A DNA stretch of 64,000 nt from contig CAMEJD010000004.1 in NCBI GenBank assembly GCA_945919375.1, positions 27,443 to 91,442 of the forward strand, in the 5' to 3' direction. The position numbers and the translations under genes were made by a program. Numbering within the stretch: the first letter of the stretch is position 1; every line of letters starts with the position of its first letter. The notes below the pieces were generated by a model. It worked only from the letters and a program-made list of their open reading frames with translations, was not told the origin of the DNA and did no database searches. Source of the stretch: an uncultured Clostridia bacterium. GTDB lineage: Bacteria > Bacillota > Clostridia > Christensenellales > UBA1242. Positions 24,994 to 61,733 of this stretch are shown here, in pieces.

Positions 24994-26712
24994 CTACCAA
25001 TTTTTTAGTTCACTCATATCAAATGGTTTTGAAAAATGTTCTTTATATTCATTTAACTTATCATCATCAATTCTTGCATAAAGTGGCTTTGGTGCATTTG
25101 TTTTATGATCTTTCTTTACGTCAATAAGTTTTGCATTATCCCAATAACCATCTTCACTTGGACTGCCGGCAAAATTAAGTTGCTCTGTCCAAATTTCTTT
25201 TGTACGATTGCACATAATTGGGCTTGCAACAATACACAAAGATTTTGCCATATTTAGACATAGATACAAAACTTTTTTCGCTTTGTCTATTTCGCCATTT
25301 TTTATTAGAGTCCAAGGTGCTGACTTTTCAAGATATGTGTTTCCAACACCTGCAAAATTCATAATTTGTTTAAATGCTTCCCTAAATTCTGTATGTTCAA
25401 ACAAGTCCTTTATTTTGTCCGGATAAGTTTTGATTGCTTCAATCATTTCGTTATCAAACTCATTTAGTTCAACTGTGTCATCTAACTCAAAATCAAGTTT
25501 ACCTTCAAAATTCTTCCAAATCATATTTAGTGTTCTATTAAAGAAATTACCAAATTTCCCAACAAGTTCACTGTTTGTTGTAAGTTTGTAATCTTCCCAC
25601 TTAAAGTCACTGTCTTTGTTCTCTGGGAACACTGTCACAAGATATGCTCTTAATGTGTCTATATCAATATCGCTTGTAAGCAATCCATCACAAAATACAC
25701 CAATATTTTTGCTCTTTGAGAATTTTTGACCTTCATAGTTCATAAAGCAAAAGCCTACAACATTGTGTGCCAAATTATATTCACCTTCGCCAAGTAGCAT
25801 TGCTGGGAAAAATACCGAATGGAATGGAATATTGTCCTTCCCAATAAAGTTATAAATTTCAGCATCGTCACTTTGCCAATACTTTTTAACTAACTCATTT
25901 CCACCAAGTTCTTTTGTAATTGAAATATACCCAATTGGGGCATCAAACCAAACATAAAAGACTTTGTCTTCAAACCCTTCTTTTGGAACTTTTATTCCCC
26001 AAGGTATATCTCTTGTTATTGCTCTTGGCTCAAGACCAGCATTTATCCACCTTTTTGCTTCTTTATAAACAGTTGGACGCCAAATATCTTTTTTGCTTTC
26101 TATCCATTCGTCAAGTTTTGGTGCCAATTTATCCAATCTTAAATATAAATGTTTTGTTGACTTTCTTACTGCACTATTTCCACAGAACTTGCATTTTGGG
26201 TCAATAAGTTCACTTGTTTCATATGTTTCCCCACACTTATCGCATTGGTCACCATATGCCCCTTCATATCCACATTTTGGACATTTACCTATTACAAATC
26301 TATCTGCAAGTGCAATATGGTCATGCTCACAATAAAGCATCTCATCTTCTTTTTCGCTAATATAACCATTTTCATCCAACTTTTTGAAAAATGCTTGCGT
26401 TACTTCATTATGAACTTTTGTATTTGTTCCACTGTTCAATGAATAGTCTATATTAAGTTTTTTATATATAGCCCTATGAATGTTGTCAAATTTTTTTACA
26501 AGTTCATCAGGTGTCAAGTTATTCTCTTTGGCACAAATAAGAGTTGCTGTGCCATGGTCATCACTTCCCCCAACAAAAACAGCATCGTTGCCTATGCTCT
26601 TGTTAAACTTGAAAAATATATCTGCTGGCAAATGACAACCAACAATATGTCCAAGATGTGGCACGTTGTTAATGTATGGTAGTGCCGCTGTTATCAAAAC
26701 TTTCTTCTTCAT
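24994..26712 (-). CDS. metG: Methionine--tRNA ligase
   Basis: It has a HIGH-type motif (PYINNVPHLGHIVG), zinc knuckles (CPKCGYEGAYGDQCDKCG and CKFCG) and a KMSKS-type motif (KFSKSKN). Confidence 0.92.
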   Translation of the reverse strand: MKKKVLITAALPYINNVPHLGHIVGCHLPADIFFKFNKSIGNDAVFVGGSDDHGTATLICAKENNLTPDELVKKFDNIHRAIYKKLNIDYSLNSGTNTKVHNEVTQAFFKKLDENGYISEKEDEMLYCEHDHIALADRFVIGKCPKCGYEGAYGDQCDKCGETYETSELIDPKCKFCGNSAVRKSTKHLYLRLDKLAPKLDEWIESKKDIWRPTVYKEAKRWINAGLEPRAITRDIPWGIKVPKEGFEDKVFYVWFDAPIGYISITKELGGNELVKKYWQSDDAEIYNFIGKDNIPFHSVFFPAMLLGEGEYNLAHNVVGFCFMNYEGQKFSKSKNIGVFCDGLLTSDIDIDTLRAYLVTVFPENKDSDFKWEDYKLTTNSELVGKFGNFFNRTLNMIWKNFEGKLDFELDDTVELNEFDNEMIEAIKTYPDKIKDLFEHTEFREAFKQIMNFAGVGNTYLEKSAPWTLIKNGEIDKAKKVLYLCLNMAKSLCIVASPIMCNRTKEIWTEQLNFAGSPSEDGYWDNAKLIDVKKDHKTNAPKPLYARIDDDKLNEYKEHFSKPFDMSELKNW

Positions 26713-26732: not shown

Positions 26733-26968
26733 TTATCCACATTTGTACAATATGCATAAATAATCTTTTCTTTTGCACTAATTATATATTTATCCACAGG
26801 GTTTTGTCAATTAACTATTGCCTTTTTATCCACTAAAATATAGAAATGTGGAAAAGTTATCCACATTTCCACATTTGAATATTTATTCATTTTGTTAATT
26901 ATTTATGTATTTTTATAAATTGTATGCAAAATGTGGACAAAAATCTAAAAGTTATCCACATTTCCACA
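26733..26968. promoter_or_regulatory. DnaA-box cluster (4 perfect TTATCCACA boxes plus several 1-2-mismatch boxes)
   Basis: Perfect boxes lie at 26733-26741, 26790-26798, 26857-26865 and 26952-26960. One-mismatch boxes lie at 26826-26834, 26847-26855 (reverse) and 26932-26940 (reverse). The 23-nt string aaaagttatccacatttccacat occurs twice. Confidence 0.8.
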
Positions 26969-27103
26969 TACAGTTATAATAACATAACATCATTTTCTTA
27001 TTTTTATTGATATGATACTTTATTGTATTGTGTATAACTTGTTTATATACATGTGTATAAGTGTAGAAAATGTCTGTTTTCAGAATTTTTTGACGAATGT
27101 CTT

Positions 27104-28102
27104 TTATATAAATTTGAATATAACATTAAGCACCAAATACACAATGTACATAATATACAACCCCAAAAATACAAAGCCTTGCCATCTGTATGTTTTTTTT
27201 GTAATCAATATTGGTAATAGTAATAATATACTAAATAACAAGGAAAGAGCAAGCGAAATATATGCAGTTTCTTTTGTTATTATCATCTTTGAATTGAATG
27301 CCACAAGTTTTGAAACGCCCAAAATCAAAGTTACATTAAGAATGCTTGAGCCAATAACGTTACCAATTGCAAGATATGGCGAATCTCCCTTTATTGCATT
27401 CAACACAATCACAAGTTCTGGCAAACTTGTTCCAACTGCGACAATAGTAAGTCCAACAAATTCTTCACTTATTCCAACAACCTTTGCCAAAAATTCAACC
27501 TTGTCAACAAGAAGATATGCACCACCACCAATTGCACCTGCACCTAATATAAATAGTAATATAGTTAGCCAAAGTGGTTTTTGCTTTTTTTCTTGCACGC
27601 TTTTCTTTTGCGACTTTTTATCAGTTGTAACTGCATCAATATAGTTTACAACAAAATACAAAACGGTCAATGCAAGCAAAACATATGCCATTACATTTGT
27701 TATTTCAAAAAACAGTCCAAAACCAAAAATTACAAAGGCAACAACCAAACTTAAATAATACTTAAGCATTCCCCCACGAGATAAATCACAACCTTTGTAT
27801 GCAAAGCAAATACCCAAAATTAAACCATAGTTGCAAAGAAGCGAACCAACAGCATTTCCAACTGCCAAATCAGTTGTTCCATCCAAACTTGAAAATATTG
27901 CAATCAGTAGTTCCGGCAATGTTGTTGCAATACTTGCAATTGTTGCACCAAAAACAAGACTTGGAATTTTTAACCTTTTTGCAATATCTTGACTGCTATC
28001 AACAAATATATCTCCACCTTTTATCACCAAAAACAAGGCGACCAAAAGCAAAAGTACCGCAATAAAAATTTTCATAATTTTCCTTTTTTTTATTGTGTGC
28101 AA
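27104..28102 (-). CDS. Ca2+/Na+ antiporter (CaCA/YrbG family)
   Basis: It has duplicated alpha-repeat motifs (GATIASIATTLPELL/GNAVGS and VAVGTSLPELV/GNVIGSSILN). The start may be the MKIFIAV ATG at 28075. Confidence 0.88.
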   Translation of the reverse strand: MHTIKKRKIMKIFIAVLLLLVALFLVIKGGDIFVDSSQDIAKRLKIPSLVFGATIASIATTLPELLIAIFSSLDGTTDLAVGNAVGSLLCNYGLILGICFAYKGCDLSRGGMLKYYLSLVVAFVIFGFGLFFEITNVMAYVLLALTVLYFVVNYIDAVTTDKKSQKKSVQEKKQKPLWLTILLFILGAGAIGGGAYLLVDKVEFLAKVVGISEEFVGLTIVAVGTSLPELVIVLNAIKGDSPYLAIGNVIGSSILNVTLILGVSKLVAFNSKMIITKETAYISLALSLLFSILLLLPILITKKTYRWQGFVFLGLYIMYIVYLVLNVIFKFI

Positions 28103-35859: not shown

Positions 35860-36515
35860 AATATGGCTTCGCCCTTTTGGGGCTGTGTCACATTTTCAAG
35901 ATTATTCAAGCAATCTTGTCTATACTCATTGTAATAACTGTCGGGTTTCTGATTCTTTTGATATGAAAATAAATTAATAAAAAAACAAGTTATAAGTGTC
36001 TTGGGAATATTAAAAAGTTTGATAGAATAATTAAAAGCAAAATTAGAGTCTAATATTATAGTTTGATAGAAAAATATATCAATTAAAAAAAGAACCTCAA
36101 GTTCGAGGCAGGTTTGAAATATGCTAAAGTTTGGTAGAAGAATTAAAAGTAAAATTAAGGCACAGATTCTAGGCTCGCATAATAAAATCCGGCAGGAGTT
36201 TGCTAACGCAAATAGGGCTTCGCCCTTTTATCAGCGTCGCATATTTAAGATTGTGCAAGCATATTTTCTATATGCTCCTTGTAATGACTGTCGGATTTCT
36301 AATTCTTTAGATAGAAAACAAATAAATTAAAAAAGAACCTCAAGTTCGAGGCAGGTTTGAAATATGCTAAAGTTTGGTAGAAGAATTAAAAGTAAAATTA
36401 AGGCACAGATTCTAGGCTCGCATAATAAAATCCGGCAGGAGTTTGCTAACGCAAATGACTGTCGGATTTTTTATGCAGTAAACAACGAAGATGTGCCTTA
36501 ATTTTGCTTTTAATT
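35860..36515. repeat. Mosaic tandem repeat in the transporter/dnaN convergent spacer, including a 128-bp exact direct repeat and a 24-bp inverted repeat
   Basis: Positions 36086-36213 and 36329-36456 read as identical by eye, at an offset of 243 bp. A degenerate third copy lies near 35983-36080. A 72-nt module (36214-36285) is related to 35864-35935. The inverted repeat pairs 36384-36407 with 36492-36515 and overlaps the dnaN stop codon. Confidence 0.85.
36427..36472 (+). terminator. Plus-strand hairpin plus U-tract inside repeat copy B
   Basis: The outer stem pairs aaaatccggcag with ctgtcggatttt and includes one G-T pair. The inner stem is tttgc-taac-gcaaa. The hairpin is followed by tttttt. 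Confidence 0.5.
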
Positions 36516-37622
36516 GATCATACGGACAGGCAAAATCAAATACAAAAATTCTTCCTTCTCCCCATCAATCGGTGTTATAATACATGGATTTGTTGAAGAT
36601 GAAAAACTAATTTTTACAAATTCATTTGATACTGCTCTAAATGCTTCCAAGAAATATCTTGCATTGAAAGCAATTACCAAATCTTTTCCTGTGAGTACAA
36701 CATTTATTTTTTCTTTTATATTACCAATTTCACTATTTGATGTAAGATATAATGTATCTTCTTTTATATCAAACTTTACAAGGTTGTTTTGTCCAATTTT
36801 TGAAAGGAGTGATGCTCTTTCCAAAGCATCTTCCATTTGTGCCTTGTTTACTGTTATAACAGTGTCTTTTGATGAAGATGATATTATTTGGCTGTAACTT
36901 AAGAATTCGCCTTCAAGTAATCTTGTGATAATCTTTGTATCGCCAAGGTCAACCATAAGAAAATTCTTTTGAACATATACATTTACAATATCGTCACTAT
37001 CATCAAGAAGTTTTGCAATTTCCCTTAAACTTTTGTCTGGAACAATGCATGATGTTTCAAGGTTAGAAAAAGCCAAAACTTTTCTTACAAGAGAAAGTCT
37101 GTATCCATCACTTGTGACTGCTTTGATTATGTCTTGTCCAATTTCAAGTAAACAACCTTTTAAAATAGGTCTTGAATCGTCAATTGCAACAGAGAATATC
37201 GCTTTGTTTATAAGGTCTTTGAAATCTTGTTTTGTTATTCCAAAATATTCAGTTGTATTTACATTATTGAATGCTGGATATTCGTCTGGAGTAAAGCATT
37301 GAATAAAACCTTCACTATCTATATATTTTATTTTTAAACCATTCTTTTCATTTAGCGTTAGTTCAATTTTTTCGTTTGTTAATTTTTTTACAAACTCGCA
37401 AAAAAATCTTCCTGGAACAACTGTTTCGCCTTCTTCCTTAACTTCGGCTCTTATTTTCTTTTCAATAGAAAGTTCAAGGTCAGTTGCAAGCAATGTTAAT
37501 TCACTGCCTTCGGCTATAAGTTTAATTCCTTCCAAAATAGGGTTTGTTGTTTTTGATGCAATTGCTTTGCTTACCTTTAAAACTGCATCTGATAGGTCTA
37601 AACCATCACAAATAATTTGCAT
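36510..37622 (-). CDS. dnaN: DNA polymerase III beta sliding clamp
   Basis: The 370-aa protein lies immediately downstream of dnaA. The N-terminus (MQIICDGLDLSDAVLKVSKAIASKTTNPILEGIKL) is typical of DnaN. Confidence 0.95.
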   Translation of the reverse strand: MQIICDGLDLSDAVLKVSKAIASKTTNPILEGIKLIAEGSELTLLATDLELSIEKKIRAEVKEEGETVVPGRFFCEFVKKLTNEKIELTLNEKNGLKIKYIDSEGFIQCFTPDEYPAFNNVNTTEYFGITKQDFKDLINKAIFSVAIDDSRPILKGCLLEIGQDIIKAVTSDGYRLSLVRKVLAFSNLETSCIVPDKSLREIAKLLDDSDDIVNVYVQKNFLMVDLGDTKIITRLLEGEFLSYSQIISSSSKDTVITVNKAQMEDALERASLLSKIGQNNLVKFDIKEDTLYLTSNSEIGNIKEKINVVLTGKDLVIAFNARYFLEAFRAVSNEFVKISFSSSTNPCIITPIDGEKEEFLYLILPVRMIN

Positions 37623-37819
37623 AATTTTGCTTCCTTTTAATTTAATATTTTTATATCTTTAAATTGTTATATTTATTATATAGAGTGTGAAAATGTGGAT
37701 AACTATTTTTAAACACAATATATAGTTTAACATTTTGACATTTTACTTATTTTATAACAAAATATTGATTTTTTGAAATGTGGACAAGTTGTTAATAAAT
37801 TTTTTAATTTATCCACATA
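37623..37819. other. Candidate oriC segment (dnaA-dnaN intergenic DnaA boxes plus an AT-rich stretch)
   Basis: Perfect DnaA boxes lie at 37694-37702 (reverse) and 37809-37817. A one-mismatch box lies at 37779-37787 (reverse). An extremely AT-rich run spans 37640-37690. This is the canonical Firmicute location. Confidence 0.6.
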
Positions 37820-39181
37820 TTAACAATTTTCTTGAATTTGCTTTTTAATGTCGTCCAAGATAACTTTTGTTTTGTGGTCTTTTTTAAGTTTTTCTGTTAT
37901 CTTATCTCTTGAGTGGATAATTGTAGTATGGTCCCTTCCGCCAAACAATTTACCAATGCTTACAAGTGGAACTTCAAGCATATCACTAATAAGATATATT
38001 GCCATCATTCTTGGTTCAACAATTTCTTTGCTTTTCTTTTTGCCAATAATTTCTTTGTATTCAACACCATAATATTTGCTTACTGTTTGAATGATAAGTT
38101 CTGGAGTTATTCTTTTGTTTTGTTCCTCGGCTTGTTCTTTTAATGCTTCTTTTGCATCTTCCAAGGTTGCATTCTTTTTGCCAAGAAGTGTTGCAAAGAA
38201 ATATACCTTTCCAAGAGAACCTTCCATTTCACGAATATTTGTATCAACTTTTTCAGCAATGAAATCTATTGCGTCATCGTCAATAAAATATCTTTCAATT
38301 TGTGCTTTTTTCCTTAATATCGCTATTCTTGTTTCATAGTCCGGTGCTTGAATATCTTGTATAAATCCACTAACAAAACGAGAACGGAGTCTGTCGGTTA
38401 ATGTTTCAATTTCTTTTGGTGGTCTATCTGAAGAAATGATAATTTGTTTGTCTTGTTGATATAGGTCATTAAATGTGTTAAAAAATTCTTCTTGTGTTTC
38501 TATTCTTTTTGTCAAAAATTGAATATCATCAATCATCAAAACATCAACACTTCTATATTTTTCTCTAAATGCTGCTGTTCCTTTTGTTGGACCTTTATCT
38601 TTGTTTGAACCTAGAGATTCAACAAAGTCGTTTGTAAATTGGTTACAAGAAACATATTTGATTTTGAGTTTTGGGTTGTTTTGCTTGATATAGTTCCCAA
38701 TTGCGTGCAACAAGTGGGTTTTTCCAAGTCCAACACCACCATATATAAATAATGGGTTAAATTTGTGCCCCGGATTTTCGGCAACTGCTTTTGCTGCTGC
38801 ATAACAAACCTGATTGCTTTTTCCAACAACAAAGTTGTCAAAAGTATACTTTGCGTTGAACATATTTTCATCTTCTTCTTTGTTTTGTTCGTCTACAATT
38901 GTTTCTGGTTTGTTCTTTTTTAAATATTCTTCTTTTTCGTCTGGATCAAGTATTTCATATTCTGTGTCTGAACCAAAAACATCTCTAATTGCTTCACCAA
39001 GTTCTTTTGCGTGATTTTTTTGGAGTTGTTTTTTTGCTGTTACAGAGTTTGCAACCAAAATTAACTTGTCGGTGTAATCAAGAGGAACAATTGGCTCAAG
39101 CCAAAGTTCATAAGATACAATGCTGACAAGTGGTTCAATTTTTGAAAGTACCCTTTCCCACATTTGATTTAGGTCTTGCAT
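37820..39181 (-). CDS. dnaA: Chromosomal replication initiator DnaA
   Basis: The AAA+ Walker A motif is GGVGLGKTHLLHAIGN. The C-terminal DNA-binding helix region is GGRDHTTIIHSRDKI. Confidence 0.97.
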   Translation of the reverse strand: MQDLNQMWERVLSKIEPLVSIVSYELWLEPIVPLDYTDKLILVANSVTAKKQLQKNHAKELGEAIRDVFGSDTEYEILDPDEKEEYLKKNKPETIVDEQNKEEDENMFNAKYTFDNFVVGKSNQVCYAAAKAVAENPGHKFNPLFIYGGVGLGKTHLLHAIGNYIKQNNPKLKIKYVSCNQFTNDFVESLGSNKDKGPTKGTAAFREKYRSVDVLMIDDIQFLTKRIETQEEFFNTFNDLYQQDKQIIISSDRPPKEIETLTDRLRSRFVSGFIQDIQAPDYETRIAILRKKAQIERYFIDDDAIDFIAEKVDTNIREMEGSLGKVYFFATLLGKKNATLEDAKEALKEQAEEQNKRITPELIIQTVSKYYGVEYKEIIGKKKSKEIVEPRMMAIYLISDMLEVPLVSIGKLFGGRDHTTIIHSRDKITEKLKKDHKTKVILDDIKKQIQENC

Positions 39182-39371
39182 TTTTTTCTCCGAATATATT
39201 ATAACTTATCTACCCTATTTTTGCAAATATTTTTTATTAGTCTATATAATAAGGATATATAGTATATATAATTATATTAGAAAAAATAAACATATCTTTT
39301 TTTAAGTTAAATATCTACTCTATATTGACATAAAAAATTTTGTGTGTTAGTATTTAAAACAAGGTTAATAA

Positions 39372-53632: not shown

Positions 53633-54376
53633 TTAGTCATCCCTTTTTGAATGTGACATAAAGAATAATATAAATCTTAATAGTTGCAAAATTGACACAA
53701 GCAAGGCGGCAACATAAGTTTTTGCGGCTGCGGACAATACTTTTTTTGCCCCCTTTACTTCCATTTCGTCAACGCAACCGGTTGAAACTAGCAAAGAAAG
53801 TGCTCTTTTTGATGCATTTATTTCAACAGGCAAAGTTACAAGTGAAAACAACATACTAACACCAAAGAATGCAACGCCTGCCCATAAGAATGCTTTTCCA
53901 ACAATCCCACCAATATATGCAAAATCAAGAACGATTCCGATTAACACAAGTGGCCAAACAAAATATGACATAAAATTGCTTACATGAACAAGTGCTGTTC
54001 TAACCTTCATTGGTTTATATTCTTGGGCATATTGAATTGCATGTCCCGTTTCGTGGGCTGCGACTCCCAAAGCAGAAATTGATGTTGAATCATATACTTT
54101 TGATGATAATGTGATAATGTTTGTTTGGGGATTAAAGTTGTCAACAAGTTCACTATCTTCGCTTTTTTGTATTGTAACACCAATAATTCCTTGTGACTCC
54201 AAAATTCTCCTAACACATTCTGCCCCAGTAATGTTTTTTGAAGAAACAACTTTTTCGTATTTAGAAAATGTTGTGTTGACTTTTATGCTGACAATTGTTG
54301 CATAAATAATTCCGGGAATTAAAATTAACCCCATTAGTGTGTATTCCAAATATTCAGGTGAAAACATAACCCACAT
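53633..54376 (-). CDS. Membrane zinc metallopeptidase (YugP / Zn_peptidase_2-like)
   Basis: It has an HExxH motif (AAHETGHAIQYAQ) and flanking TM helices. Confidence 0.75.
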   Translation of the reverse strand: MWVMFSPEYLEYTLMGLILIPGIIYATIVSIKVNTTFSKYEKVVSSKNITGAECVRRILESQGIIGVTIQKSEDSELVDNFNPQTNIITLSSKVYDSTSISALGVAAHETGHAIQYAQEYKPMKVRTALVHVSNFMSYFVWPLVLIGIVLDFAYIGGIVGKAFLWAGVAFFGVSMLFSLVTLPVEINASKRALSLLVSTGCVDEMEVKGAKKVLSAAAKTYVAALLVSILQLLRFILFFMSHSKRDD

Positions 54377-54391
54377 AAAATAAATCTCCTT

Positions 54392-55138
54392 TTAGTAAAA
54401 ATCATATTTTTTGACAAGCATTGTCCAACCGACAAGACTTTTTAAAAATGATGATATATATGTTAATTTTGCTGCAGAAAGCACTTTTTTTGCGTCTTTT
54501 ATGCTCTCTTCATCAAAGTCAGCATATTTTTTTAATAATTCTATTGCATTTTCTGATGCTTCTTTTTCTATTCTTATGGTGCTTAGTTTTGCAAATAATC
54601 CTATTAAAAATGTTATTATGCTTGCAACTGCAAAACTGATTGCAAACCAAAAGTTTATGAACATAAGTATTATTCCAATAACAAAAAGTGGCATTGTAAA
54701 TTTTGTAACAGTTTTTGAAATAACAAGATTTGCACTAAATTTTTTCATTTTTTTGGGTGTGTCACGATATTGAATTGCGTGACCTAATTCGTGACAAGCA
54801 ACAGCAAATGCTGAAATGCTTGAAGAATCGTATACATCTTGACTTAAATATATTGTTCCATTGTAATAGTAGTCCGACAAAAAACCTTGTGTTTTTTCTA
54901 CTGCAATTTTTCCATTAAACTCTTGATTTGAAATTGTGCTAGCAAGTTCGTGTGTCTTTAAAAAACTAGAATATGTGTTTTTGTACTGATTATACACTGT
55001 AAGCAAGTTCTCCCCGGCATAATTAGTAATTGCCAAACTTACAAGAATAAATAACACAAACACGCTTACAAGACAAATAATGATTATTGTATTTACGTCC
55101 ATACATATTATAATGTAAAATTTTGATAAAAATGTCAA
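54392..55138 (-). CDS. Membrane zinc metallopeptidase (YugP-like), tandem paralog
   Basis: It has an HExxH motif (ACHELGHAIQYRD). The likely start is the MDVNTI ATG at 55102. Confidence 0.75.
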   Translation of the reverse strand: MTFLSKFYIIICMDVNTIIIICLVSVFVLFILVSLAITNYAGENLLTVYNQYKNTYSSFLKTHELASTISNQEFNGKIAVEKTQGFLSDYYYNGTIYLSQDVYDSSSISAFAVACHELGHAIQYRDTPKKMKKFSANLVISKTVTKFTMPLFVIGIILMFINFWFAISFAVASIITFLIGLFAKLSTIRIEKEASENAIELLKKYADFDEESIKDAKKVLSAAKLTYISSFLKSLVGWTMLVKKYDFY

Positions 55139-55463: not shown

Positions 55464-55545
55464 TGGTGCGAGTAACGAGACTTGAACTCATACGATTTCT
55501 CACTTGCCCCTTAAACAAGCGCGTCTACCATTCCGCCATACTCGC
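55464..55545 (-). tRNA. tRNA-Leu (class II, long variable arm), anticodon AAG in the canonical register
   Basis: The reverse complement is GCGAGTATGGCGGAATGGTAGACGCGCTTGTTTAAGGGGCAAGTGAGAAATCGTATGAGTTCAAGTCTCGTTACTCGCACCA. It folds with a 7-bp acceptor stem, a D loop AATGGTAGA and an anticodon stem CTTGT/GCAAG. The anticodon loop is TTAAGGG, the variable arm is 11 nt, the T loop is TTCAAGT, the discriminator is A, and CCA is encoded. It aligns well with the E. coli tRNA-Leu(CAG) sequence as I recall it. Confidence 0.9.
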
Positions 55546-56194: not shown

Positions 56195-56896
56195 ATGGAA
56201 CAAATATTAAAAGAACTTTTTGAGAAATATAATCTAGAATACGACGATTCAAAAATTGCACAAATTATTAAATTTTATGACATGGTTATTGAAACAAATA
56301 AAGTTATGAATTTGACAAATATCACAGAAGAAAAGGAATTTGCCATAAAAAATATTTTGGACTGCATTTTGCCTATGAAAATTATTCCGGTAAATTCAAA
56401 AGTTTTAGATATTGGAGCAGGTGCAGGATTTCCTTCAATTCCACTAAAAATTATGCGTCCCGACCTTGATATTGTTATGGTGGACAGTTTAAACAAAAGA
56501 GTTAATTTTTTAAAAACCGTTATTCAAAAACTTGATTTAAAAAATATTACTGCAAATCATATGAGAATTGAGGACTTTGCGGTGAACAATAAGGAAAGGT
56601 TTGATATTGTTGTCGCTCGTGCAGTTGCAAGATTGAACACATTGCTTGAATATTCGCTTCCGCTTGTAAAAATCAAAGGAAAAGTAATCGCTTATAAAAG
56701 TCAAAAGGCGGAAGAAGAAATTGCCGAAGCACAAAATGCTCTTAATATTTTGGGTGGAAAAGTTACCGAACTTCAAACTGTTTTAATTAAGGAAATTGAC
56801 AGTATAAGAGTTAATATAGTCATTGAAAAGATAAAAAATACTCCAAAAGAATATCCAAGGGGGAAAAATCTTCCAAAATTAAAACCAATTATATAA
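56195..56896 (+). CDS. rsmG: 16S rRNA (guanine527-N7)-methyltransferase RsmG
   Basis: The SAM motif is VLDIGAGAGFPSIPLKI. The gene lies upstream of parAB. Confidence 0.9.
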   Translation: MEQILKELFEKYNLEYDDSKIAQIIKFYDMVIETNKVMNLTNITEEKEFAIKNILDCILPMKIIPVNSKVLDIGAGAGFPSIPLKIMRPDLDIVMVDSLNKRVNFLKTVIQKLDLKNITANHMRIEDFAVNNKERFDIVVARAVARLNTLLEYSLPLVKIKGKVIAYKSQKAEEEIAEAQNALNILGGKVTELQTVLIKEIDSIRVNIVIEKIKNTPKEYPRGKNLPKLKPII

Positions 56897-56977
56897 AAAA
56901 TTATCATTATAAAGTCAAAATAATATATAATGATTGATTTTTTTTGATATTATGATATAATAAATTAAGAGGTTATT

Positions 56978-57799
56978 ATGGGAAAAATAATTGCTTTCGC
57001 CAATCAAAAGGGTGGTGTTGGCAAAACTACAACCTGTATAAATGTTGCTGCATATATTGCCGCAATGGGGAAAAAGGTTTTGCTAATTGATATGGATCCC
57101 CAAGGGAACACTACAAGTGGCGTTGGAATTGATAAATCTAACAAAGAATTAAAAACTCTTTATAATGTAATTAACAAAGATGTAATAGTTGATGAAGCAA
57201 TATATCCAACTTGTGTTGAGGATTTGGATATAATCCCAGCAACAGTAGATTTGGCTGGCGCTGAAATTGACCTTGTTCAAATGCATTCAAGAGAACATGT
57301 TGTAAAAAATGCATTGGCAAGAGTAAAAAATAAATATGATTTTATATTTATCGACTGCCCACCATCATTAGGTCTATTGACTGTAAATGCCCTAACTGCT
57401 GCAGATTCCGTTATAATTCCAATTCAATGTCAGTTCTATGCATTGGAAGGCTTAACACAATTGATGAACACAATAAAACTTATTATTCATCACCTAAACC
57501 CTGACCTAAAAATTGAAGGCGTTGTCCTTACAATGAAGGACAATCGCTCAAATCTTGTTCAACAAGTTAGTGATGAAGTTAAAAAATTCTTTAATAAAAA
57601 GGTATTTGATACATATATTCCACAGAATATAAGGCTTGCCGAAGCACCAAGCCATGGACTGCCAATTATGCTGTATGATACAAATTCAAAAGGTGCAAAT
57701 GCATATCAAAGTTTGGCAGAAGAAATATTGGAAAGGAATAATCAAAGTTATAAAAAAATAACTAAATCGACAAAATTTAAAGTAAGGAGTGAACAATAA
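56978..57799 (+). CDS. parA: ParA/Soj chromosome-partitioning ATPase
   Basis: The deviant Walker A motif is ANQKGGVGKTTT. The segment DCPPSLGLLTVNAL is also present. Confidence 0.93.
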   Translation: MGKIIAFANQKGGVGKTTTCINVAAYIAAMGKKVLLIDMDPQGNTTSGVGIDKSNKELKTLYNVINKDVIVDEAIYPTCVEDLDIIPATVDLAGAEIDLVQMHSREHVVKNALARVKNKYDFIFIDCPPSLGLLTVNALTAADSVIIPIQCQFYALEGLTQLMNTIKLIIHHLNPDLKIEGVVLTMKDNRSNLVQQVSDEVKKFFNKKVFDTYIPQNIRLAEAPSHGLPIMLYDTNSKGANAYQSLAEEILERNNQSYKKITKSTKFKVRSEQ

Positions 57800-58788
57800 T
57801 GGCACAAAAGAAAATGGGACTTGGTAAAGGTCTTGGGGCTTTGTTATCAATATATGATGAAGAAGTTGATGATTTGGAAAGTGACAATAAAAAACCTGTA
57901 GCGCAAGAGAAAAAAGAGCAAGAAACAACAATTGTTGAAGGTACAAAAGTTAAAGGTGGAGTTGAGGAAATTCCTGTAAGCGAAATAAGACCAAATCCAA
58001 ACCAACCAAGAAAGAATTTTGATCCGGAAGCATTAAACGAACTTGCAAATTCGATTAAAACACATGGTATTATACAACCTATTGTTGTAAACAAAGATAA
58101 AACTGGATATATGATTATCGCCGGTGAAAGAAGATGGCGCGCATCAAAAATTGCAGGGCTTGATACCGTTCCATGTGTTGTAAAGAACTACACTGAACGA
58201 CAAATAAAAGAAATTTCAATCATAGAAAACTTGCAAAGAGAAGATTTGAATCCTATTGAAGCAGCAAGAGCAATTAAACAACTTATGGATGAATATAATT
58301 TCACGCAAGAAACTGTTGCTGACAGAATTGGCATTTCAAGACCAAATATTGCAAATACTTTAAGACTTTTGGCATTGTGCCCTGAAGTTATTGCAATGGT
58401 AGAACAAGGAAAATTGAGTGCTGGTCATGCAAGATGTTTGGTTGTTATAACCGACCCAAAAGTTCAACAAAAGTTTGCAGTTGCTGCAAGTAATGGTAAA
58501 GTTACTGTAAGAGAACTTGAAAAATTAGTAAAATCATACCTTAATCCAAAGGGTAGCACAAAAAATAAGCCACCAGAACAAAGTATGGAACTTAAAGAAC
58601 TTATAAATGAAATGCAAAGAGTATTCTCAACAAAAGTTTCGGCAATTGGTAGTGATAGAAAAGGTAGAATATACATAGACTATTATTCAAGAGATGATTT
58701 GGATAGAATTGCTGAATTGTTGGAACTATTAAAAACAAAAACTTTAACACTAAAAGATTTGAGTAATTTTAATAAAAAGGTTCAATAA
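57799..58788 (+). CDS. parB: ParB/Spo0J chromosome-partitioning protein
   Basis: The motifs are GLGKGLGALL, IRPNPNQPRKNFD and the GERRWRA box. An HTH segment (TQETVADRIGISRPNIANTLRLL) is present. The gene has a 1-nt overlap with parA. Confidence 0.93.
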   Translation: MAQKKMGLGKGLGALLSIYDEEVDDLESDNKKPVAQEKKEQETTIVEGTKVKGGVEEIPVSEIRPNPNQPRKNFDPEALNELANSIKTHGIIQPIVVNKDKTGYMIIAGERRWRASKIAGLDTVPCVVKNYTERQIKEISIIENLQREDLNPIEAARAIKQLMDEYNFTQETVADRIGISRPNIANTLRLLALCPEVIAMVEQGKLSAGHARCLVVITDPKVQQKFAVAASNGKVTVRELEKLVKSYLNPKGSTKNKPPEQSMELKELINEMQRVFSTKVSAIGSDRKGRIYIDYYSRDDLDRIAELLELLKTKTLTLKDLSNFNKKVQ

Positions 58789-58806
58789 TTGATTTAAAAA
58801 ATGAAT

Positions 58807-58843
58807 AAAAAGACTGTCATAAATGCTTGACAGTCTTTTCTTA
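58807..58843 (+). terminator. Intrinsic terminator after parB
   Basis: A 10-bp stem pairs aagactgtca (58810-58819) with tgacagtctt (58828-58837). The sequence ttctt follows. Confidence 0.7.
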
Positions 58844-58852
58844 TGTTTAAAG

Positions 58853-58971
58853 TTATCCACATTCGGTTGAACAAAATTTATAAAAATAGGCAAAATTTAC
58901 CAAAAATGGGGACTAAAAAATGTCGTTTTATCCACATTTTGAGGTATAAATGTGGATAACTGTGTGGATAA
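58853..58971. promoter_or_regulatory. DnaA-box cluster (4 perfect boxes within 119 bp)
   Basis: TTATCCACA occurs at 58853-58861 and 58928-58936. TGTGGATAA occurs at 58951-58959 and 58963-58971. Confidence 0.8.
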
Positions 58972-59032
58972 GTCAAAAATTATGCATATTACCCCAATTG
59001 ATTGAGAATTTTATATTTCCTTAATAGTTTAT

Positions 59033-59048
59033 TGTTTCACGTGAAACA
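59033..59048. promoter_or_regulatory. parS site 1 (TGTTTCACGTGAAACA)
   Basis: It is an exact 16-bp palindrome matching the Firmicute parS consensus tGTTNCACGTGAAACa. Confidence 0.85.
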
Positions 59049-59106
59049 TTGGGTAAAATTTGTATACTGCTTTTTGCTTAGTATAACATATTTGAGGTGG
59101 CAATAT

Positions 59107-59253
59107 ATGATAAATGTGTTTTTGCTATTTGTGGTTATATTAGTATTTTGTATGTTTATATTTGTGTTAATATATCTTACAAGATTGAATTCGTTTTGCG
59201 ATGTAATCGGGTTTAAAATTTTTCTTGTAGAATTAGGTTGTTTTATGGCATGA
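59107..59253 (+). CDS. Candidate 48-aa hydrophobic small protein
   Basis: A GAGGTGG Shine-Dalgarno sequence (59094-59100) lies 6 nt upstream of the ATG. The peptide is MINVFLLFVVILVFCMFIFVLIYLTRLNSFCDVIGFKIFLVELGCFMA. It has no homology support. Confidence 0.3.
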   Translation: MINVFLLFVVILVFCMFIFVLIYLTRLNSFCDVIGFKIFLVELGCFMA

Positions 59254-59494
59254 ATATATCTTATATACATATTGTATTGATATTCTGATTTATATGGTAT
59301 TTTGATTTTTGTCATTATGCTTGTTTATGGTTTCAAAACAGGTAGTTTTTAATTATTTAATTTAAGTATATGTTTGTATAAAGATAATGCACTAGTTCAT
59401 TTTTATGACAGAATGGTAAAAAATGATTATTTTTAAATTTTTTCATTGCAAATTACCTAAACATTAAAATACCTGTCTTCGTGTATGTATCAAA

Positions 59495-59510
59495 TGTTTC
59501 ACGTGAAACA
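59495..59510. promoter_or_regulatory. parS site 2
   Basis: The 16-mer is exact. It lies inside a 28-bp perfect palindrome at 59489-59516 (atcaaatgtttcacgtgaaacatttgat). Confidence 0.85.
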
Positions 59511-59821
59511 TTTGATTAGAACAATTTAGTTGTTTGCATATTTTTGTATACAAACGTGTACGGTAGCAATACTCTTTGTACTAATAATGTTGTTATTGTG
59601 CAAAAATCACAAGGTGTAAACTGTTTTTATGTCTTTACTTTATGCAATTTTTGTGATTTTGGGTAATGACCGGATGCCTTTTGTATAGTTAAACACTATT
59701 ATATAAAAATATTTTGTGTTGTAACTTGGTATATATGATTGTTTAGTTCGTGAATTGTTTGTCTTATATAGAAAACTATATGTTTTTATGTTTTGATTTG
59801 CTATTTATTGTATAACAAAAA

Positions 59822-59837
59822 TGTTTCACGTGAAACA
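59822..59837. promoter_or_regulatory. parS site 3
   Basis: The 16-mer is exact. It lies inside a 26-bp perfect palindrome at 59817-59842. Confidence 0.85.
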
Positions 59838-60021
59838 TTTTTTGGTTATTTTATCAAATAAACATGCATGTGCATTGAGTTTTTGCATGGTATATGTACT
59901 TTTTTAATAAATTAATTATAAATCATATTATGTGTTTATCTTAATATATTATTAGTACAGTTACCATGTGTAGTGTAATTGTTATATTTTTGCTTAACAA
60001 TATTGCGATATGTTATCAAAA

Positions 60022-60037
60022 TGTTTCACGTGAAACA
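60022..60037. promoter_or_regulatory. parS site 4
   Basis: The 16-mer is exact. It lies inside a 30-bp perfect palindrome at 60015-60044 (atcaaaatgtttcacgtgaaacattttgat). Confidence 0.85.
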
Positions 60038-60226
60038 TTTTGATGAAAAGTATGTATTGTGCATTGTTAAATATTGTTGTTGTATGTGTGCTGTTGCCGA
60101 TTTATATATATTGTTATATTATTATACAATTAGATTAAGTCTTTTTATGTAAATAATTGCTTGTGATTATGTCTAATGTGGTTTCGGTATATTTATGTGT
60201 ATTATAAACTTTAAAATTTGAAATAA

Positions 60227-60242
60227 TGTTTCACGTGAAACA
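60227..60242. promoter_or_regulatory. parS site 5
   Basis: The 16-mer is exact. It lies inside a 26-bp perfect palindrome at 60222-60247. Confidence 0.85.
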
Positions 60243-60678
60243 TTATTATTGTATATTTTTTTGGATTTTTCTTCTGCACTGCTATCATTTTTGCAAAATT
60301 TTGCTTAAAAATATTGTTCAAAATATGCTTTGTGTGCTTACAATCATTTTAGTTAAGCATTTTATTTTAAATAATTATTAGATATGTATTGCTGTGCTAA
60401 TGGATCGTATGGTAATGACTGTAAAGAATTTTTTGTATATTTCCTTATACATTCTTATTTACATTTTTAATTTTTAGGAAATTGTTTTGAATAGTCAAAA
60501 ATGCTCTGGCTCAATTTCTGTGGTCTATAACCTTTGCATCTGTGTTATTTGTTTATAGGTAAAAGTGTTCGTTAAAAATGATTAAAATTTGTTTTGAATA
60601 AGATTTTTTAATGCCCATTTTTTGATATAATTTGGTTTTTTTGAATAAAAAAATGAATATTAGCAATAATTATATGCC

Positions 60679-61263
60679 GTGGTTTTTGATTTAACTTTTA
60701 TAATAATAATTTGTTGGTTTGCCATTATTGGATATCGAAAGGGTATGTTATACTCTTTATTTTCTATATTCGGAATTACCCTTGCTTTGTTTTTATCATA
60801 TTTGGTATCCCCAGTAATAATAAATATGGTTTGCAAATTGTTAAATAGTGGTAATAATATAGATATTGAACTAGATAGTCTATTGCATAGCAATATAAAT
60901 ATTCTAACTTTTGCAAATTATGTATTAAGTGCAAAAAATTTTAATATGTATAGTATTTCTTTGTATGCATTGATTATTATGGCAAGTTATTTTTTTGTTT
61001 TGCTTATTATAAAGTCTATACTAGGAAATGTTGCTCGTATATGCTACTATGGATGCAGTAAAAAAATCACTTTCGCTAAGTGTGATAGATTCTTGGGTGT
61101 CTTTTGTGGTACAATAAAGGGGTTAATATTCGTTTTTATGTTGTCGGTTGTAGTAATTATTGCAAAAACTATCAATATATTTGATAATAATGTAATAATG
61201 CAAATATCTAATTCAAGTTTGATAGATTTCTCGTATTGCATTTTTAATTTTATGATAAAATAA
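60679..61263 (+). CDS. CvpA-family membrane protein
   Basis: It has a GTG start. The N-terminus (DLTFIIIICWFAIIGYRKGMLYSLFSIFG) and the four TM segments resemble CvpA. Confidence 0.6.
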   Translation: MVFDLTFIIIICWFAIIGYRKGMLYSLFSIFGITLALFLSYLVSPVIINMVCKLLNSGNNIDIELDSLLHSNINILTFANYVLSAKNFNMYSISLYALIIMASYFFVLLIIKSILGNVARICYYGCSKKITFAKCDRFLGVFCGTIKGLIFVFMLSVVVIIAKTINIFDNNVIMQISNSSLIDFSYCIFNFMIK

Positions 61264-61733
61264 GTATAGACATCTATGATTATTGAAGAAAACGTTGTTT
61301 TTATCAATTGCCATAATCTGTATATGTTTAGATAACTCTACCAAATATTGTATAATTATTCCCGCAATTAAAACGATTTTTGATTTTTCCTTGAATTTTG
61401 ATTTGTCAACTTGTAAATAAAATTAATATATACCAAAAACCAAAGAATTTATAATTGTATGAGTAATGTTATTTTTTTAAATAGGTGTTATCATATATAT
61501 ATACTTCATTAGCCTTTTTTTAGCCAGCCATATTGTTATATTTGTATATTATAAATACATATACCTAATCATATGGAAAAATACATAAAATTATTTATTA
61601 TGCAAAGTACATTATAGTAAGAAAGTTATATAAATATAACAAAAATACTCACATTATTAAATGTGAATATTTTTGTTAAAATAGACTAAACATCAAAAAT
61701 GATTTTTTGCCATTGTGTTATAATGAATTTTAT

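What the first reader, a model, noticed from the sequence alone, without database searches (positions are those of the whole stretch)
59033..60242. Array of five perfect parS sites in an ORF-poor spacer immediately downstream of parAB
The 16-mer TGTTTCACGTGAAACA occurs exactly five times, at 59033, 59495, 59822, 60022 and 60227. The spacings are 462, 327, 200 and 205 bp. It matches the known Firmicute parS consensus (tGTTNCACGTGAAACa). Four of the five copies sit in longer perfect palindromes of 26-30 bp, and copies 2 and 4 share ATCAAA(A)TGTTTCACGTGAAACA(T)TTTGAT. In well-studied Firmicutes, parS sites are scattered singly over the origin-proximal domain and often lie inside genes. A dedicated intergenic array right behind the ParB gene looks more like a plasmid-style centromere. 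The flanks extending the palindromes suggest selection beyond the 16-bp core.
Basis: partly seen in the sequence, partly recalled or inferred. Interest (0 to 1): 0.72.

Follow-up and report, generated by a model that had tools for sequence, protein, structure and literature searches.

The report
Chromosomal parS centromere array behind parB
Five perfect ParB-binding (parS) sites sit in an untranscribed, gene-free spacer just after the parAB partition genes of an uncultured pig-gut Clostridia bacterium; this is its chromosomal centromere, an arrangement shared by its whole clade and a compact example of a known kind rather than a new one.

Summary
TGTTTCACGTGAAACA occurs exactly five times, at the stated coordinates. 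There is no other match in the 64 kb even at two mismatches (0.08 expected).

The sites lie in a 1.9 kb non-coding spacer between an rsmG-parA-parB operon and cvpA, about 20 kb from dnaA/dnaN. ParB is a canonical chromosomal CTP-type ParB with the parS-specific HTH residues.

In 80 related genomes (uncultured Clostridia, ParB 57-97% identical), 60 carry 2-7 parS sites just downstream of parB, and 196 of 197 such sites are intergenic. Against the closest other species, spacer homology is lost except for the parS islands. Gut metatranscriptome contigs cover rsmG-parAB, stop at the terminator hairpin after parB, and leave the spacer uncovered.

So this is a conserved, dedicated, probably transcriptionally silent centromere, not a decayed gene. 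"Plasmid-style" is unnecessary: tight parS clusters next to parAB are documented on chromosomes (Caulobacter, Corynebacterium, Pseudomonas).

Two extras:
- A conserved cluster of four perfect DnaA boxes sits between parB and parS1, only in the closest (probably genus-level) clade.
- Palindromes extending beyond the 16-mer are in clade-wide excess (46 observed against 8.4 expected).

Verdict: real, functional-looking, a new member of a known kind. Interest is modest.

The parts
56195..56896 (+). rsmG (gidB) 16S rRNA methyltransferase, first gene on the RNA contig that runs through parAB
   Evidence: Pfam GidB E=2e-51. RNA contig spans 56227-58820.
56978..57799 (+). parA/soj, chromosomal-type Walker ATPase (273 aa, KGGVGKTT, no N-terminal HTH extension)
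   Evidence: Pfam AAA_31 E=6.5e-71 and CbiA/ParA. Translation.
57799..58788 (+). parB/spo0J. It carries the N-terminal LGKGLGALL ParA-interaction motif, the GERRWRA CTP motif and ENLQRE. The HTH reads GISRPNIANTLRLLA...LSAGHAR.
   Evidence: Pfam ParB_N E=1.4e-35 and HTH_ParB E=1.7e-34. Best PDB matches are Myxococcus ParB 7BNK and B. subtilis Spo0J 6SDK, both above Noc. Specificity residues are defined in PMC7383237.
58808..58839 (.). Bidirectional intrinsic-terminator-like hairpin (12-13 bp stem, T/A runs on both sides) ending the rsmG-parAB transcript
   Evidence: Terminator scan. A hairpin is retained in most close relatives. RNA contigs from three runs end at 58805, 58810 and 58820, and the fourth at 58752.
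58853..58971 (.). Cluster of four perfect DnaA boxes TTATCCACA: 58853 (+), 58928 (+), 58951 (-), 58963 (-)
   Evidence: 10 perfect boxes in the window against 0.88 expected, all in three clusters. Box positions and spacing are conserved in L001-L007 while the sequence between them diverges. Density is 4.75/kb against 0.35/kb background; the cluster is absent in L008-L080.
59033..59048 (.). parS1, a perfect 16-mer with no palindromic extension. It is the last element of the block conserved with L001 and L002.
   Evidence: Homology with L001 and L002 runs to about 59050.
59489..59516 (.). parS2 (core 59495-59510) in a 28-bp perfect palindrome
   Evidence: (I22).
59817..59842 (.). parS3 (core 59822-59837) in a 26-bp perfect palindrome
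   Evidence: It is a conserved island in the alignment with L001.
60015..60044 (.). parS4 (core 60022-60037) in a 30-bp perfect palindrome
   Evidence: (I19).
60222..60247 (.). parS5 (core 60227-60242) in a 26-bp perfect palindrome
59049..60524 (.). AT-rich (24% GC), G+T-rich filler DNA between and after the parS sites. It is non-coding, weakly constrained or unconstrained, and not detectably transcribed.
   Evidence: No homology to L001 except the parS islands. No conserved peptide, no decayed gene and no repeat elsewhere in the window. No Rfam match at E<=1. Within-species divergence is about 4-5.5%, against 1.2-1.9% in parB. No RNA contigs.
60525..60678 (+). Conserved upstream region of cvpA with a TGATATAAT extended -10-like element
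   Evidence: Homology with L001 resumes at 60525. Sequence. The promoter reading is an inference.
60679..61263 (+). cvpA-family membrane protein gene, the right border of the spacer
   Evidence: Pfam Colicin_V E=1.4e-12. The gene is syntenic in most of L001-L007: found in L001 and L003-L007, not detected in L002.
36510..39181 (-). dnaN (36510-37622) and dnaA (37820-39181), with DnaA boxes between them. This is the inferred oriC region, about 20 kb left of the array.
   Evidence: Pfam. DnaA boxes at 37694 and 37809. Cumulative GC skew reaches its minimum at about 37-39 kb.

Best explanation
The five 16-mers are the chromosomal centromere of this bacterium, an uncultured low-GC Clostridia species from pig gut.

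Inferred mechanism, from the established ParABS/CTP-clamp model:
- Each perfect parS is a loading site where the ParB encoded immediately upstream binds through its HTH.
- ParB then closes into a CTP-bound clamp and slides onto flanking DNA.
- Five loaders within 1.2 kb give a high local ParB flux. This builds one partition complex that activates ParA (Soj) and probably recruits SMC, about 20 kb from oriC.

Shown here:
- The array sits in a dedicated non-coding spacer. A bidirectional terminator insulates it from the rsmG-parAB transcript.
- No RNA was detected over the spacer. Inference: RNA polymerase therefore does not sweep ParB clamps off it.
- The filler DNA itself is free to drift. Only the parS cores, plus a short A(4)/T(4) flank preference, are held.

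In the window's closest (probably genus-level) clade, a conserved cluster of four consensus DnaA boxes lies between the terminator and parS1. The most likely role is a DnaA-binding site, either titrating or regulatory, placed beside the ParB/ParA hub. This step is the least certain.
For: Sites and proteins:
- Exact consensus parS x5, found only here in 64 kb.
- Cognate ParA and ParB lie directly upstream.
- ParB aligns best with solved chromosomal ParBs. It carries GERRWRA and ENLQRE, and has R, T, A and G at the four specificity positions that distinguish parS binders from Noc.
- The locus is origin-proximal. dnaA and dnaN are about 20 kb away and GC skew is positive on both sides of the array.

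Conservation:
- 60 of 80 relatives have at least 2 parS within 2.5 kb after the parB stop.
- 197 of 217 parS sites in 866 kb of relatives' DNA lie in that zone.
- 196 of those 197 are outside any ORF of 100 aa or more.
- Footprinting against L001 (coding DNA about 88% identical): homology is lost after parS1 except for the parS cores.

Non-coding and untranscribed:
- No coding or RNA-family signal in the spacer.
- Four metatranscriptome runs give contigs covering 56227-58820, 57062-58805, 57390-58810 and up to 58752. They end at or just before the hairpin at 58808-58839 and cover nothing of the spacer.

DnaA boxes:
- Four perfect boxes with conserved order and spacing in L001-L007.
- Literature precedents: clustered intergenic parS; DnaA bound at the Caulobacter centromere; B. 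subtilis DnaA-box clusters acting together with Spo0J.
Against: - There is no binding, localisation or genetic evidence. The organism is uncultured.
- The rest of the genome could not be scanned, so it is unknown whether these five are the dominant parS sites.
- Absence of RNA contigs is weak negative evidence. Logan contigs drop low coverage, and cvpA is also uncovered.
- One parS is enough for segregation in several species, so any benefit of five sites is inferred.
- The DnaA-box cluster is missing from the more distant relatives that still have arrays, so it is not integral to the centromere.
- ParB has Ile where K171, a conserved parS-contacting residue, normally sits. The effect is unknown.
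Confidence: 0.85

Rival explanations
1. The sites mainly act as transcriptional operators. ParB bound and spread from the array would silence or tune neighbouring genes (cvpA downstream, or parAB itself), as plasmid ParB/KorB proteins do and as P. aeruginosa ParB does at parS3/4.
For: P. aeruginosa ParB represses promoters next to intergenic parS3 and parS4 (PMC7022226). parS5 lies about 380 bp upstream of the conserved cvpA upstream region. cvpA gave no RNA contigs where parAB did.
Against: The array is downstream of parAB, beyond a terminator, not at its promoter. In more distant relatives the arrays persist without cvpA as neighbour. Five perfect sites spread over 1.2 kb is excessive for an operator. 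Regulation could be a side effect of the centromere rather than an alternative to it.
Confidence: 0.07
2. The DnaA boxes plus the AT-rich spacer are (part of) the replication origin or a second origin, and the parS sites are embedded in it.
For: Four perfect DnaA boxes are followed by 1.7 kb of 24% GC DNA. The dnaA upstream gap (39182-39371) has no DnaA box within 1 mismatch.
Against: GC skew is positive on both sides of the locus, and the cumulative minimum lies at about 37-39 kb near dnaA-dnaN, which has its own boxes. In L003-L007 box 4 abuts parS1, leaving no room for an unwinding element. The boxes are absent in most relatives that keep the array.
Confidence: 0.03
3. The array is the centromere of an integrated plasmid or other mobile element (the 'plasmid-style' reading taken literally).
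For: Arrays of iterated centromere sites directly flanking the par operon are typical of plasmids. This point rests on general knowledge.
Against: The sequence is the universal chromosomal parS. ParA lacks the N-terminal HTH of type Ia plasmid ParAs. parAB lies on one RNA contig with rsmG in the conserved origin-region gene set of yidC, mnmE, rsmG, dnaA and dnaN. Synteny holds in 80 genomes. No mobile-element genes or repeats are present.
Confidence: 0.02
4. The extended palindromes, not the 16-mers, are the functional unit (for example cruciform- or hairpin-forming elements or bidirectional terminators), and the parS match is incidental.
For: There is an excess of long perfect palindromes (46 against 8.4). 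The A-run/T-run flanks give a terminator-like shape.
Against: Copy 1, the one copy in the deeply conserved block, has no extension. 92 of 221 clade sites have none. Extensions differ in sequence and length, whereas the 16-mer is invariant. The stems are GC-poor and the region is not detectably transcribed.
Confidence: 0.03

Closest known systems
Corynebacterium glutamicum chromosomal parS cluster (ten identical 16-bp parS in 35 kb; PMC7083940)
   Same: It has multiple identical consensus parS sites in one origin-proximal cluster, nine of ten of them intergenic. ParB zones and SMC loading emanate from the cluster, and a single site suffices for segregation.
   Different: The array here is about 30 times more compact (1.2 kb instead of 35 kb). 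All sites lie in one gene-free spacer directly after the parB stop codon. No experimental data exist.
Caulobacter crescentus parS cluster next to parAB, with DnaA binding at the centromere (PMC5815017; Mera et al. 2014 as reviewed in PMC6399470)
   Same: At least five parS sites are clustered beside parAB a few kb from ori, and ParB covers about 10 kb. The initiator DnaA binds DnaA boxes in the parS region.
   Different: The phylum and cell-cycle logic differ. Here the DnaA boxes are four perfect consensus boxes in a separate block adjacent to the parS sites, and they occur only in the closest (probably genus-level) clade. DnaA binding has not been tested.
Bacillus subtilis Spo0J/Soj with 10 parS sites and extra-origin DnaA-box clusters (PMC7022226, PMC3245932)
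   Same: It shares the parS consensus, and ParB is of the same family with the same motifs. ParA-DnaA crosstalk is known, and DnaA-box clusters outside oriC act together with Spo0J in controlling initiation.
   Different: In B. subtilis the parS sites are scattered singly over the origin-proximal domain, eight of the ten there; from general knowledge, several lie inside genes, including spo0J. Its DnaA-box clusters are not adjacent to a parS array. Here all detected sites are intergenic and contiguous.
Plasmid and secondary-replicon centromere arrays (F sopC, P1 parS, Burkholderia Bsr clusters; PMC5450999)
   Same: Iterated ParB sites lie in non-coding DNA directly flanking the par operon.
   Different: Those use replicon-specific sequences and type Ia ParA proteins with an autoregulatory HTH. 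Here the sites have the universal chromosomal sequence, ParA is the chromosomal type, and the locus sits in the core origin region.

Membership tests
Chromosomal ParABS centromere (parS) | 16-bp palindrome matching TGTTNCACGTGAAACA | tested here: met
   Five exact matches. 221 sites across the clade share an invariant core.
Chromosomal ParABS centromere (parS) | Cognate ParB with ParB_N and HTH domains and parS-type specificity residues (R173, G201; positions 179/184 not Lys) | tested here: met
   Pfam. PDB alignments. The motif GISRPNIANTLRLLA...LSAGHAR gives R/T/A/G by position mapping onto the scheme of PMC7383237. The mapping was done by motif, not by a printed alignment to 6T1F.
Chromosomal ParABS centromere (parS) | CTP-binding/clamp motif GERRxRA and the ENLQR catalytic region | tested here: met
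   GERRWRA and ENLQRE align to Spo0J 6SDK and Myxococcus ParB 7BNK.
Chromosomal ParABS centromere (parS) | Adjacent chromosomal-type ParA (deviant Walker A, no N-terminal DNA-binding domain) | tested here: met
   273 aa, KGGVGKTT at residues 11-18, with the AAA_31/ParA domains starting at residue 3.
Chromosomal ParABS centromere (parS) | Location in the origin-proximal domain | tested here: met
   dnaA and dnaN lie about 20 kb away, and the skew minimum is at about 37-39 kb.
Chromosomal ParABS centromere (parS) | ParB binding and spreading at the sites; segregation defect when they are removed | not testable with these tools
   The organism is uncultured. Indirect support only: strict conservation of the sites in drifting DNA.
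Plasmid-type (Ia) partition centromere | Carried on a plasmid or mobile replicon, with a replicon-specific repeat sequence and a ParA with an N-terminal HTH | tested here: not met
   Chromosomal core-gene context with parAB on one RNA contig with rsmG. The sequence is the universal parS. ParA is short.
Extra-origin DnaA-box cluster (DBC / datA-like) | Several consensus DnaA boxes within about 150 bp, outside oriC | tested here: met
   Four perfect TTATCCACA boxes in 119 bp. The arrangement is conserved in L001-L007. The locus is not at the skew switch.
Extra-origin DnaA-box cluster (DBC / datA-like) | DnaA occupancy and an effect on initiation timing or neighbouring transcription | not testable with these tools
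   No experimental data.
oriC | Strand-compositional switch at the site, plus an unwinding element next to the DnaA boxes | tested here: not met
   Skew is positive on both sides. Box 4 abuts parS1 in L003-L007.
Noc-binding sites (NBS) | ATTTCCCGGGAAAT-type palindrome with a Noc-type (Q/K/K/R) protein | tested here: not met
   The sequence is parS, not NBS. The protein has R/T/A/G and scores higher against ParB than against Noc structures.

The most novel reading that the evidence does not exclude
In this clade of close relatives the centromere is a composite cis-element. A fixed-geometry cluster of four DnaA boxes is joined to the parS array in a transcription-free spacer. DnaA occupancy and ParB/ParA (Soj) activity would then be coupled in cis. 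One form would be DnaA licensing or timing segregation, as proposed for Caulobacter. Another would be the ParB-ParA hub controlling a local DnaA reservoir. Either would be an independent Firmicute invention of initiator-at-centromere crosstalk. In addition, the extended palindromes could be selected to modulate ParB clamp loading or release.
Probability: 0.2. Interest if true: 0.6.

Novelty: new member of a known kind. Interest (0 to 1): 0.33.

Why it matters
The finding shows that a large, uncultured group of gut Clostridia organises its centromere differently from the Bacillus textbook picture. It uses one compact, intergenic and apparently untranscribed parS array right behind parB, instead of sites scattered through genes.

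This gives a clean natural substrate for studying how the number and spacing of parS sites affect ParB clamp loading. Copy number ranges from 2 to 7 and spacing from 34 to over 600 bp across relatives.

The adjacent conserved DnaA-box cluster offers a testable case of replication-segregation coupling in Firmicutes.

For annotation, parS arrays after parB are a reliable origin-region landmark for these metagenome-assembled genomes.

Tried and rejected
- **Decayed gene in the spacer.** All stop-to-stop segments of at least 25 aa were searched against the 80 relatives, and 1295 ORF products from the window and relatives were searched against the spacer. Only the DnaA-box block and translated parS cores matched. 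Rejected.
- **Mobile or repeated filler DNA.** The spacer has no copy elsewhere in the window, and the repeat finder gave nothing beyond the parS family. Rejected.
- **Non-coding RNA.** No Rfam match at gathering score or at E<=1, and no RNA contigs. Rejected.
- **Promoters in the spacer.** 22 promoter-like sites were found against 19 expected. Uninformative.
- **Assembly artefact.** Independent metagenome contigs are collinear with the array. The 'joints' are short parS-only matches from other community members. Rejected.
- **Exact-protein look-up of ParB.** Not on record.
- **Livny et al. 2007 (PMC2168934).** Not held, so its survey is cited only through reviews.
- **Literature on chromosomal parS arrays in Clostridia.** The search found nothing specific.
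Full report
**Observation**

The 16-mer TGTTTCACGTGAAACA occurs exactly five times in the window, at 59033, 59495, 59822, 60022 and 60227. No other match exists on either strand at up to two mismatches. Shuffles give 0.08 matches on average and never five.

Reading the sequence and the repeat tables confirms the flank claims:
- Copies 2-5 are embedded in perfect palindromes of 28, 26, 30 and 26 bp.
- Copy 1 has no extension.
- Copies 2 and 4 share ATCAAA(A)/(T)TTTGAT arms.

The sites lie in a 1890-bp gap (58789-60678). Its longest ORFs are 92 and 83 aa.

**Context**

Pfam identifies the neighbouring genes:
- rsmG (56195-56896), parA (56978-57799) and parB (57799-58788) lie upstream.
- A CvpA-family gene (60679-61263) lies downstream.
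- dnaN (36510-37622) and dnaA (37820-39181) are about 20 kb to the left.

yidC and mnmE lie in between. Cumulative GC skew reaches its minimum at about 37-39 kb and is positive on both sides of the array. The locus is therefore on the chromosome, in the origin-proximal domain of the right replichore. It is neither at the origin itself nor on a plasmid.

**The proteins are cognate**

ParB matches solved chromosomal ParBs best: Myxococcus 7BNK at E=4.5e-55 and B. subtilis Spo0J 6SDK at E=3.5e-54. Both score above Noc. It carries:
- the N-terminal LGKGLGALL motif;
- the GERRWRA CTP-binding motif;
- ENLQRE;
- an HTH reading GISRPNIANTLRLLA...LSAGHAR.

Mapped by motif onto the scheme of Jalal et al. 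(PMC7383237), the HTH gives R173/T179/A184/G201. That is the parS-binding signature, not the Q/K/K/R signature of Noc. One oddity is Ile at the position of the conserved DNA-contacting K171.

ParA is a short chromosomal-type Walker ATPase (KGGVGKTT, no N-terminal HTH).

**Relatives**

A genome-collection scan with ParB returned 80 loci. All are uncultured Clostridia MAGs, variously labelled Christensenella sp. UBA5893, Ca. Caccovivens, Ca. Caccopulliclostridium and Pumilibacteraceae. ParB identity ranges from 57 to 97%.
- 60 of 80 carry at least two parS sites (up to 1 mismatch) within 2.5 kb after the parB stop, and 67 carry at least one. Twelve loci are truncated there.
- 197 of all 217 parS sites in 866 kb of relatives' DNA fall in that zone.
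- The median is three copies over about 155 bp. Start-to-start spacing is never below 34 bp.
- 196 of the 197 sites lie outside any ORF of 100 aa or more. The ORF-free gap after parB has a median of 719 bp.

A dedicated intergenic array directly behind parB is therefore the norm in this clade. The window and L001, with five copies over 1.2-1.4 kb, are at the expanded extreme.

**Footprinting**

Against L001, a different species whose flanking coding DNA is about 88% identical, homology runs from parB through the terminator hairpin, the DnaA boxes and parS1 to about 59050. It then disappears until about 60525, upstream of cvpA. The only exception is the parS cores with a few flank bases, which stand out as islands.

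Further checks on the spacer:
- No peptide in it is conserved in any relative.
- No protein of the window or the relatives matches it.
- It has no copy elsewhere in the window.
- Rfam finds nothing even at E<=1.

The filler is therefore weakly constrained or neutral non-coding DNA (24% GC, G+T-rich on the leading strand), and the 16-mers are under strong purifying selection. The 'decayed gene with unconserved sites' refutation fails.

**Independent samples and transcription**

Near-identical DNA occurs in many pig-gut metagenomes. Their contigs are collinear with the window through the array. The spacer diverges by about 4-5.5%, against 1.2-1.9% in parB.

Four gut metatranscriptome runs give RNA contigs covering 56227-58820, 57062-58805, 57390-58810 and up to 58752. 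All end at or just before the predicted bidirectional terminator hairpin at 58808-58839.

Nothing of 58840-61600 is covered, apart from 18-24-nt parS-only matches from other organisms' contigs. This points to three conclusions:
- rsmG, parA and parB form one transcription unit.
- The unit terminates at that hairpin.
- The DnaA-box/parS spacer is not detectably transcribed.

The caveat is that assembled contigs drop low coverage, and cvpA is uncovered as well.

**Mechanism**

The first two points below are shown here:
- The sites are exact, cognate, conserved and origin-proximal.
- They are insulated from the parAB transcript.

The rest is inferred from the established ParB-CTP clamp model (reviewed in PMC7022226; PMC8367383 and PMC7053999 listed):
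- Each site loads ParB clamps that slide onto the surrounding DNA.
- Five loaders in 1.2 kb raise the loading flux and give redundancy.
- A transcription-free landing pad avoids RNA polymerase stripping the clamps.
- The complex activates ParA and probably loads SMC.

A single parS suffices in several species, so multiplicity is best read as robustness or dosage, not necessity.

Four perfect TTATCCACA boxes lie at 58853 (+), 58928 (+), 58951 (-) and 58963 (-), between the terminator and parS1. The window holds ten perfect boxes against 0.88 expected, all in three clusters: 26.7 kb, the dnaA-dnaN gap, and here.

In L001-L007 (ParB at least 77% identical) the boxes keep their order and spacing while the sequence between them changes. 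Box density there is 4.75 per kb against 0.35 background. More distant relatives have none.

This block is not an origin. Skew does not switch here, and in L003-L007 box 4 abuts parS1.

It resembles the extra-origin DnaA-box clusters of B. subtilis, which act synergistically with Spo0J in initiation control (PMC3245932). It also resembles DnaA binding at the Caulobacter centromere (Mera et al. 2014, via PMC6399470). Whether it titrates DnaA, couples DnaA to ParA/ParB, or blocks ParB sliding toward parB is open.

**Flanks**

Across 221 clade sites there is a symmetric preference for A at -1 to -4 (81% A at -2) and T at +1 to +4. Perfect palindromic extensions of at least 5 bp occur 46 times, against 8.4 expected when right flanks are shuffled among sites; 0 of 2000 shuffles reach 46.

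The longer extensions have site-specific sequences, for example ctgaga/tctcag in L002 and a 10-bp arm in L004. Palindromy itself is therefore in excess, not a specific extended motif.

This fits either of two explanations:
- selection, for example on DNA shape or hairpin/cruciform propensity at loading sites;
- a mutational process in which a perfect palindrome promotes hairpin template-switching that 'corrects' its flanks (quasi-palindrome mutagenesis, from general knowledge).

Copy 1, the most deeply conserved site, has no extension, and 92 of 221 sites have none. Extension is therefore not required.

**Comparison and novelty**

Clusters of identical, mostly intergenic parS sites near parAB are documented on chromosomes:
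- C. glutamicum has ten in 35 kb, nine of them intergenic (PMC7083940).
- Caulobacter has at least five clustered, with a 10-kb ParB zone (PMC5815017).
- P. aeruginosa has parS1-4.
- Streptomyces also has a cluster (cited).

'Plasmid-style' is contradicted by the sequence type, the ParA type and the gene context.

What is particular here:
- the compactness;
- the placement of every site in one gene-free, apparently silent spacer right after parB;
- the clade-wide conservation of that layout in a Firmicute lineage;
- the attached DnaA-box cluster in the closest relatives.

This makes it a new member of a known kind, of modest interest. A literature search found no description of chromosomal parS arrays in Clostridia. 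How far the layout extends beyond these 80 relatives was not tested.

**Limits**

No whole-genome parS census was possible and there are no binding data. The RNA evidence comes from assembled contigs. The mapping of specificity residues was done by motif.

Noticed in passing
window 1-2640, minus strand (ORF runs off the window start): A protein of at least 880 aa with N-terminal membrane segments, a long coiled-coil-like E/K/Q-rich middle and an acidic linker. It also has a C-terminal array of at least 7 'KPKGKRGRP(R/K)K' AT-hook motifs (Pfam AT_hook, 30.5 bits against a cutoff of 17.4). It could be a membrane-to-DNA tether in this 30% GC genome, about 35 kb from dnaA.
   Followed up: partly
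window 26733-27060: A third DnaA-box cluster (4 perfect boxes plus about 6 one-mismatch boxes) lies in the gap between metG (24994-26712, -) and a Na/Ca-exchanger gene (27104-28102, -). GC skew is strongly negative on both sides, so it is probably an extra-origin DnaA-box cluster, not oriC.
   Followed up: partly
window 39182-39371 and 37623-37819: The gap upstream of dnaA is very AT-rich but has no DnaA box within one mismatch. The dnaA-dnaN gap has two perfect boxes and one one-mismatch box; a further one-mismatch box lies just inside dnaA at 37912. The exact position and architecture of oriC remain unresolved.
   Followed up: partly
window 60679-61263 compared with L001: CvpA is only 64% identical between the window and L001, whereas ParB is 97% identical (DNA about 71% against 88%). 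Divergence is thus sharply uneven across the array. The cause could be relaxed constraint on cvpA or a recombination boundary at the array.
   Followed up: no
window 57799-58788 (ParB residue in GISR): ParB has Ile at the position of K171, a residue described as conserved and parS-contacting in ParB and Noc (PMC7383237). Whether this relates to the A/T flank preference of the clade's parS sites is unknown.
   Followed up: no
relatives L001-L080, parS flanks: There is a clade-wide excess of perfect palindromic extensions beyond the 16-bp parS (46 sites with at least 5 bp, against 8.4 expected), with site-specific arm sequences. There is also a symmetric A(-1..-4)/T(+1..+4) preference.
   Followed up: yes
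window 59050-60525: The filler DNA is strongly G+T-rich on the + strand (C 8.7%, T 46%; GC skew +0.28, AT skew -0.22). This exceeds the third-codon-position skews of the neighbouring genes. It is consistent with unconstrained leading-strand mutational bias, but that was not tested.
   Followed up: partly
window 53633-55138, minus strand: Two tandem paralogous Zn_peptidase_2 (putative neutral zinc metallopeptidase) genes lie here, followed by a tRNA gene at 55467-55545 (-).
   Followed up: no
L011, L013, L030, L038, L052, L063, L064, L067, L072: In a minority of relatives the parS sites lie upstream of parA or rsmG. Some have one site at about -1.8 to -2.0 kb relative to the parB stop; others have a cluster at -2.5 to -5 kb. 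These occur instead of, or in addition to, the downstream array, so the array's position has shifted within the clade.
   Followed up: no
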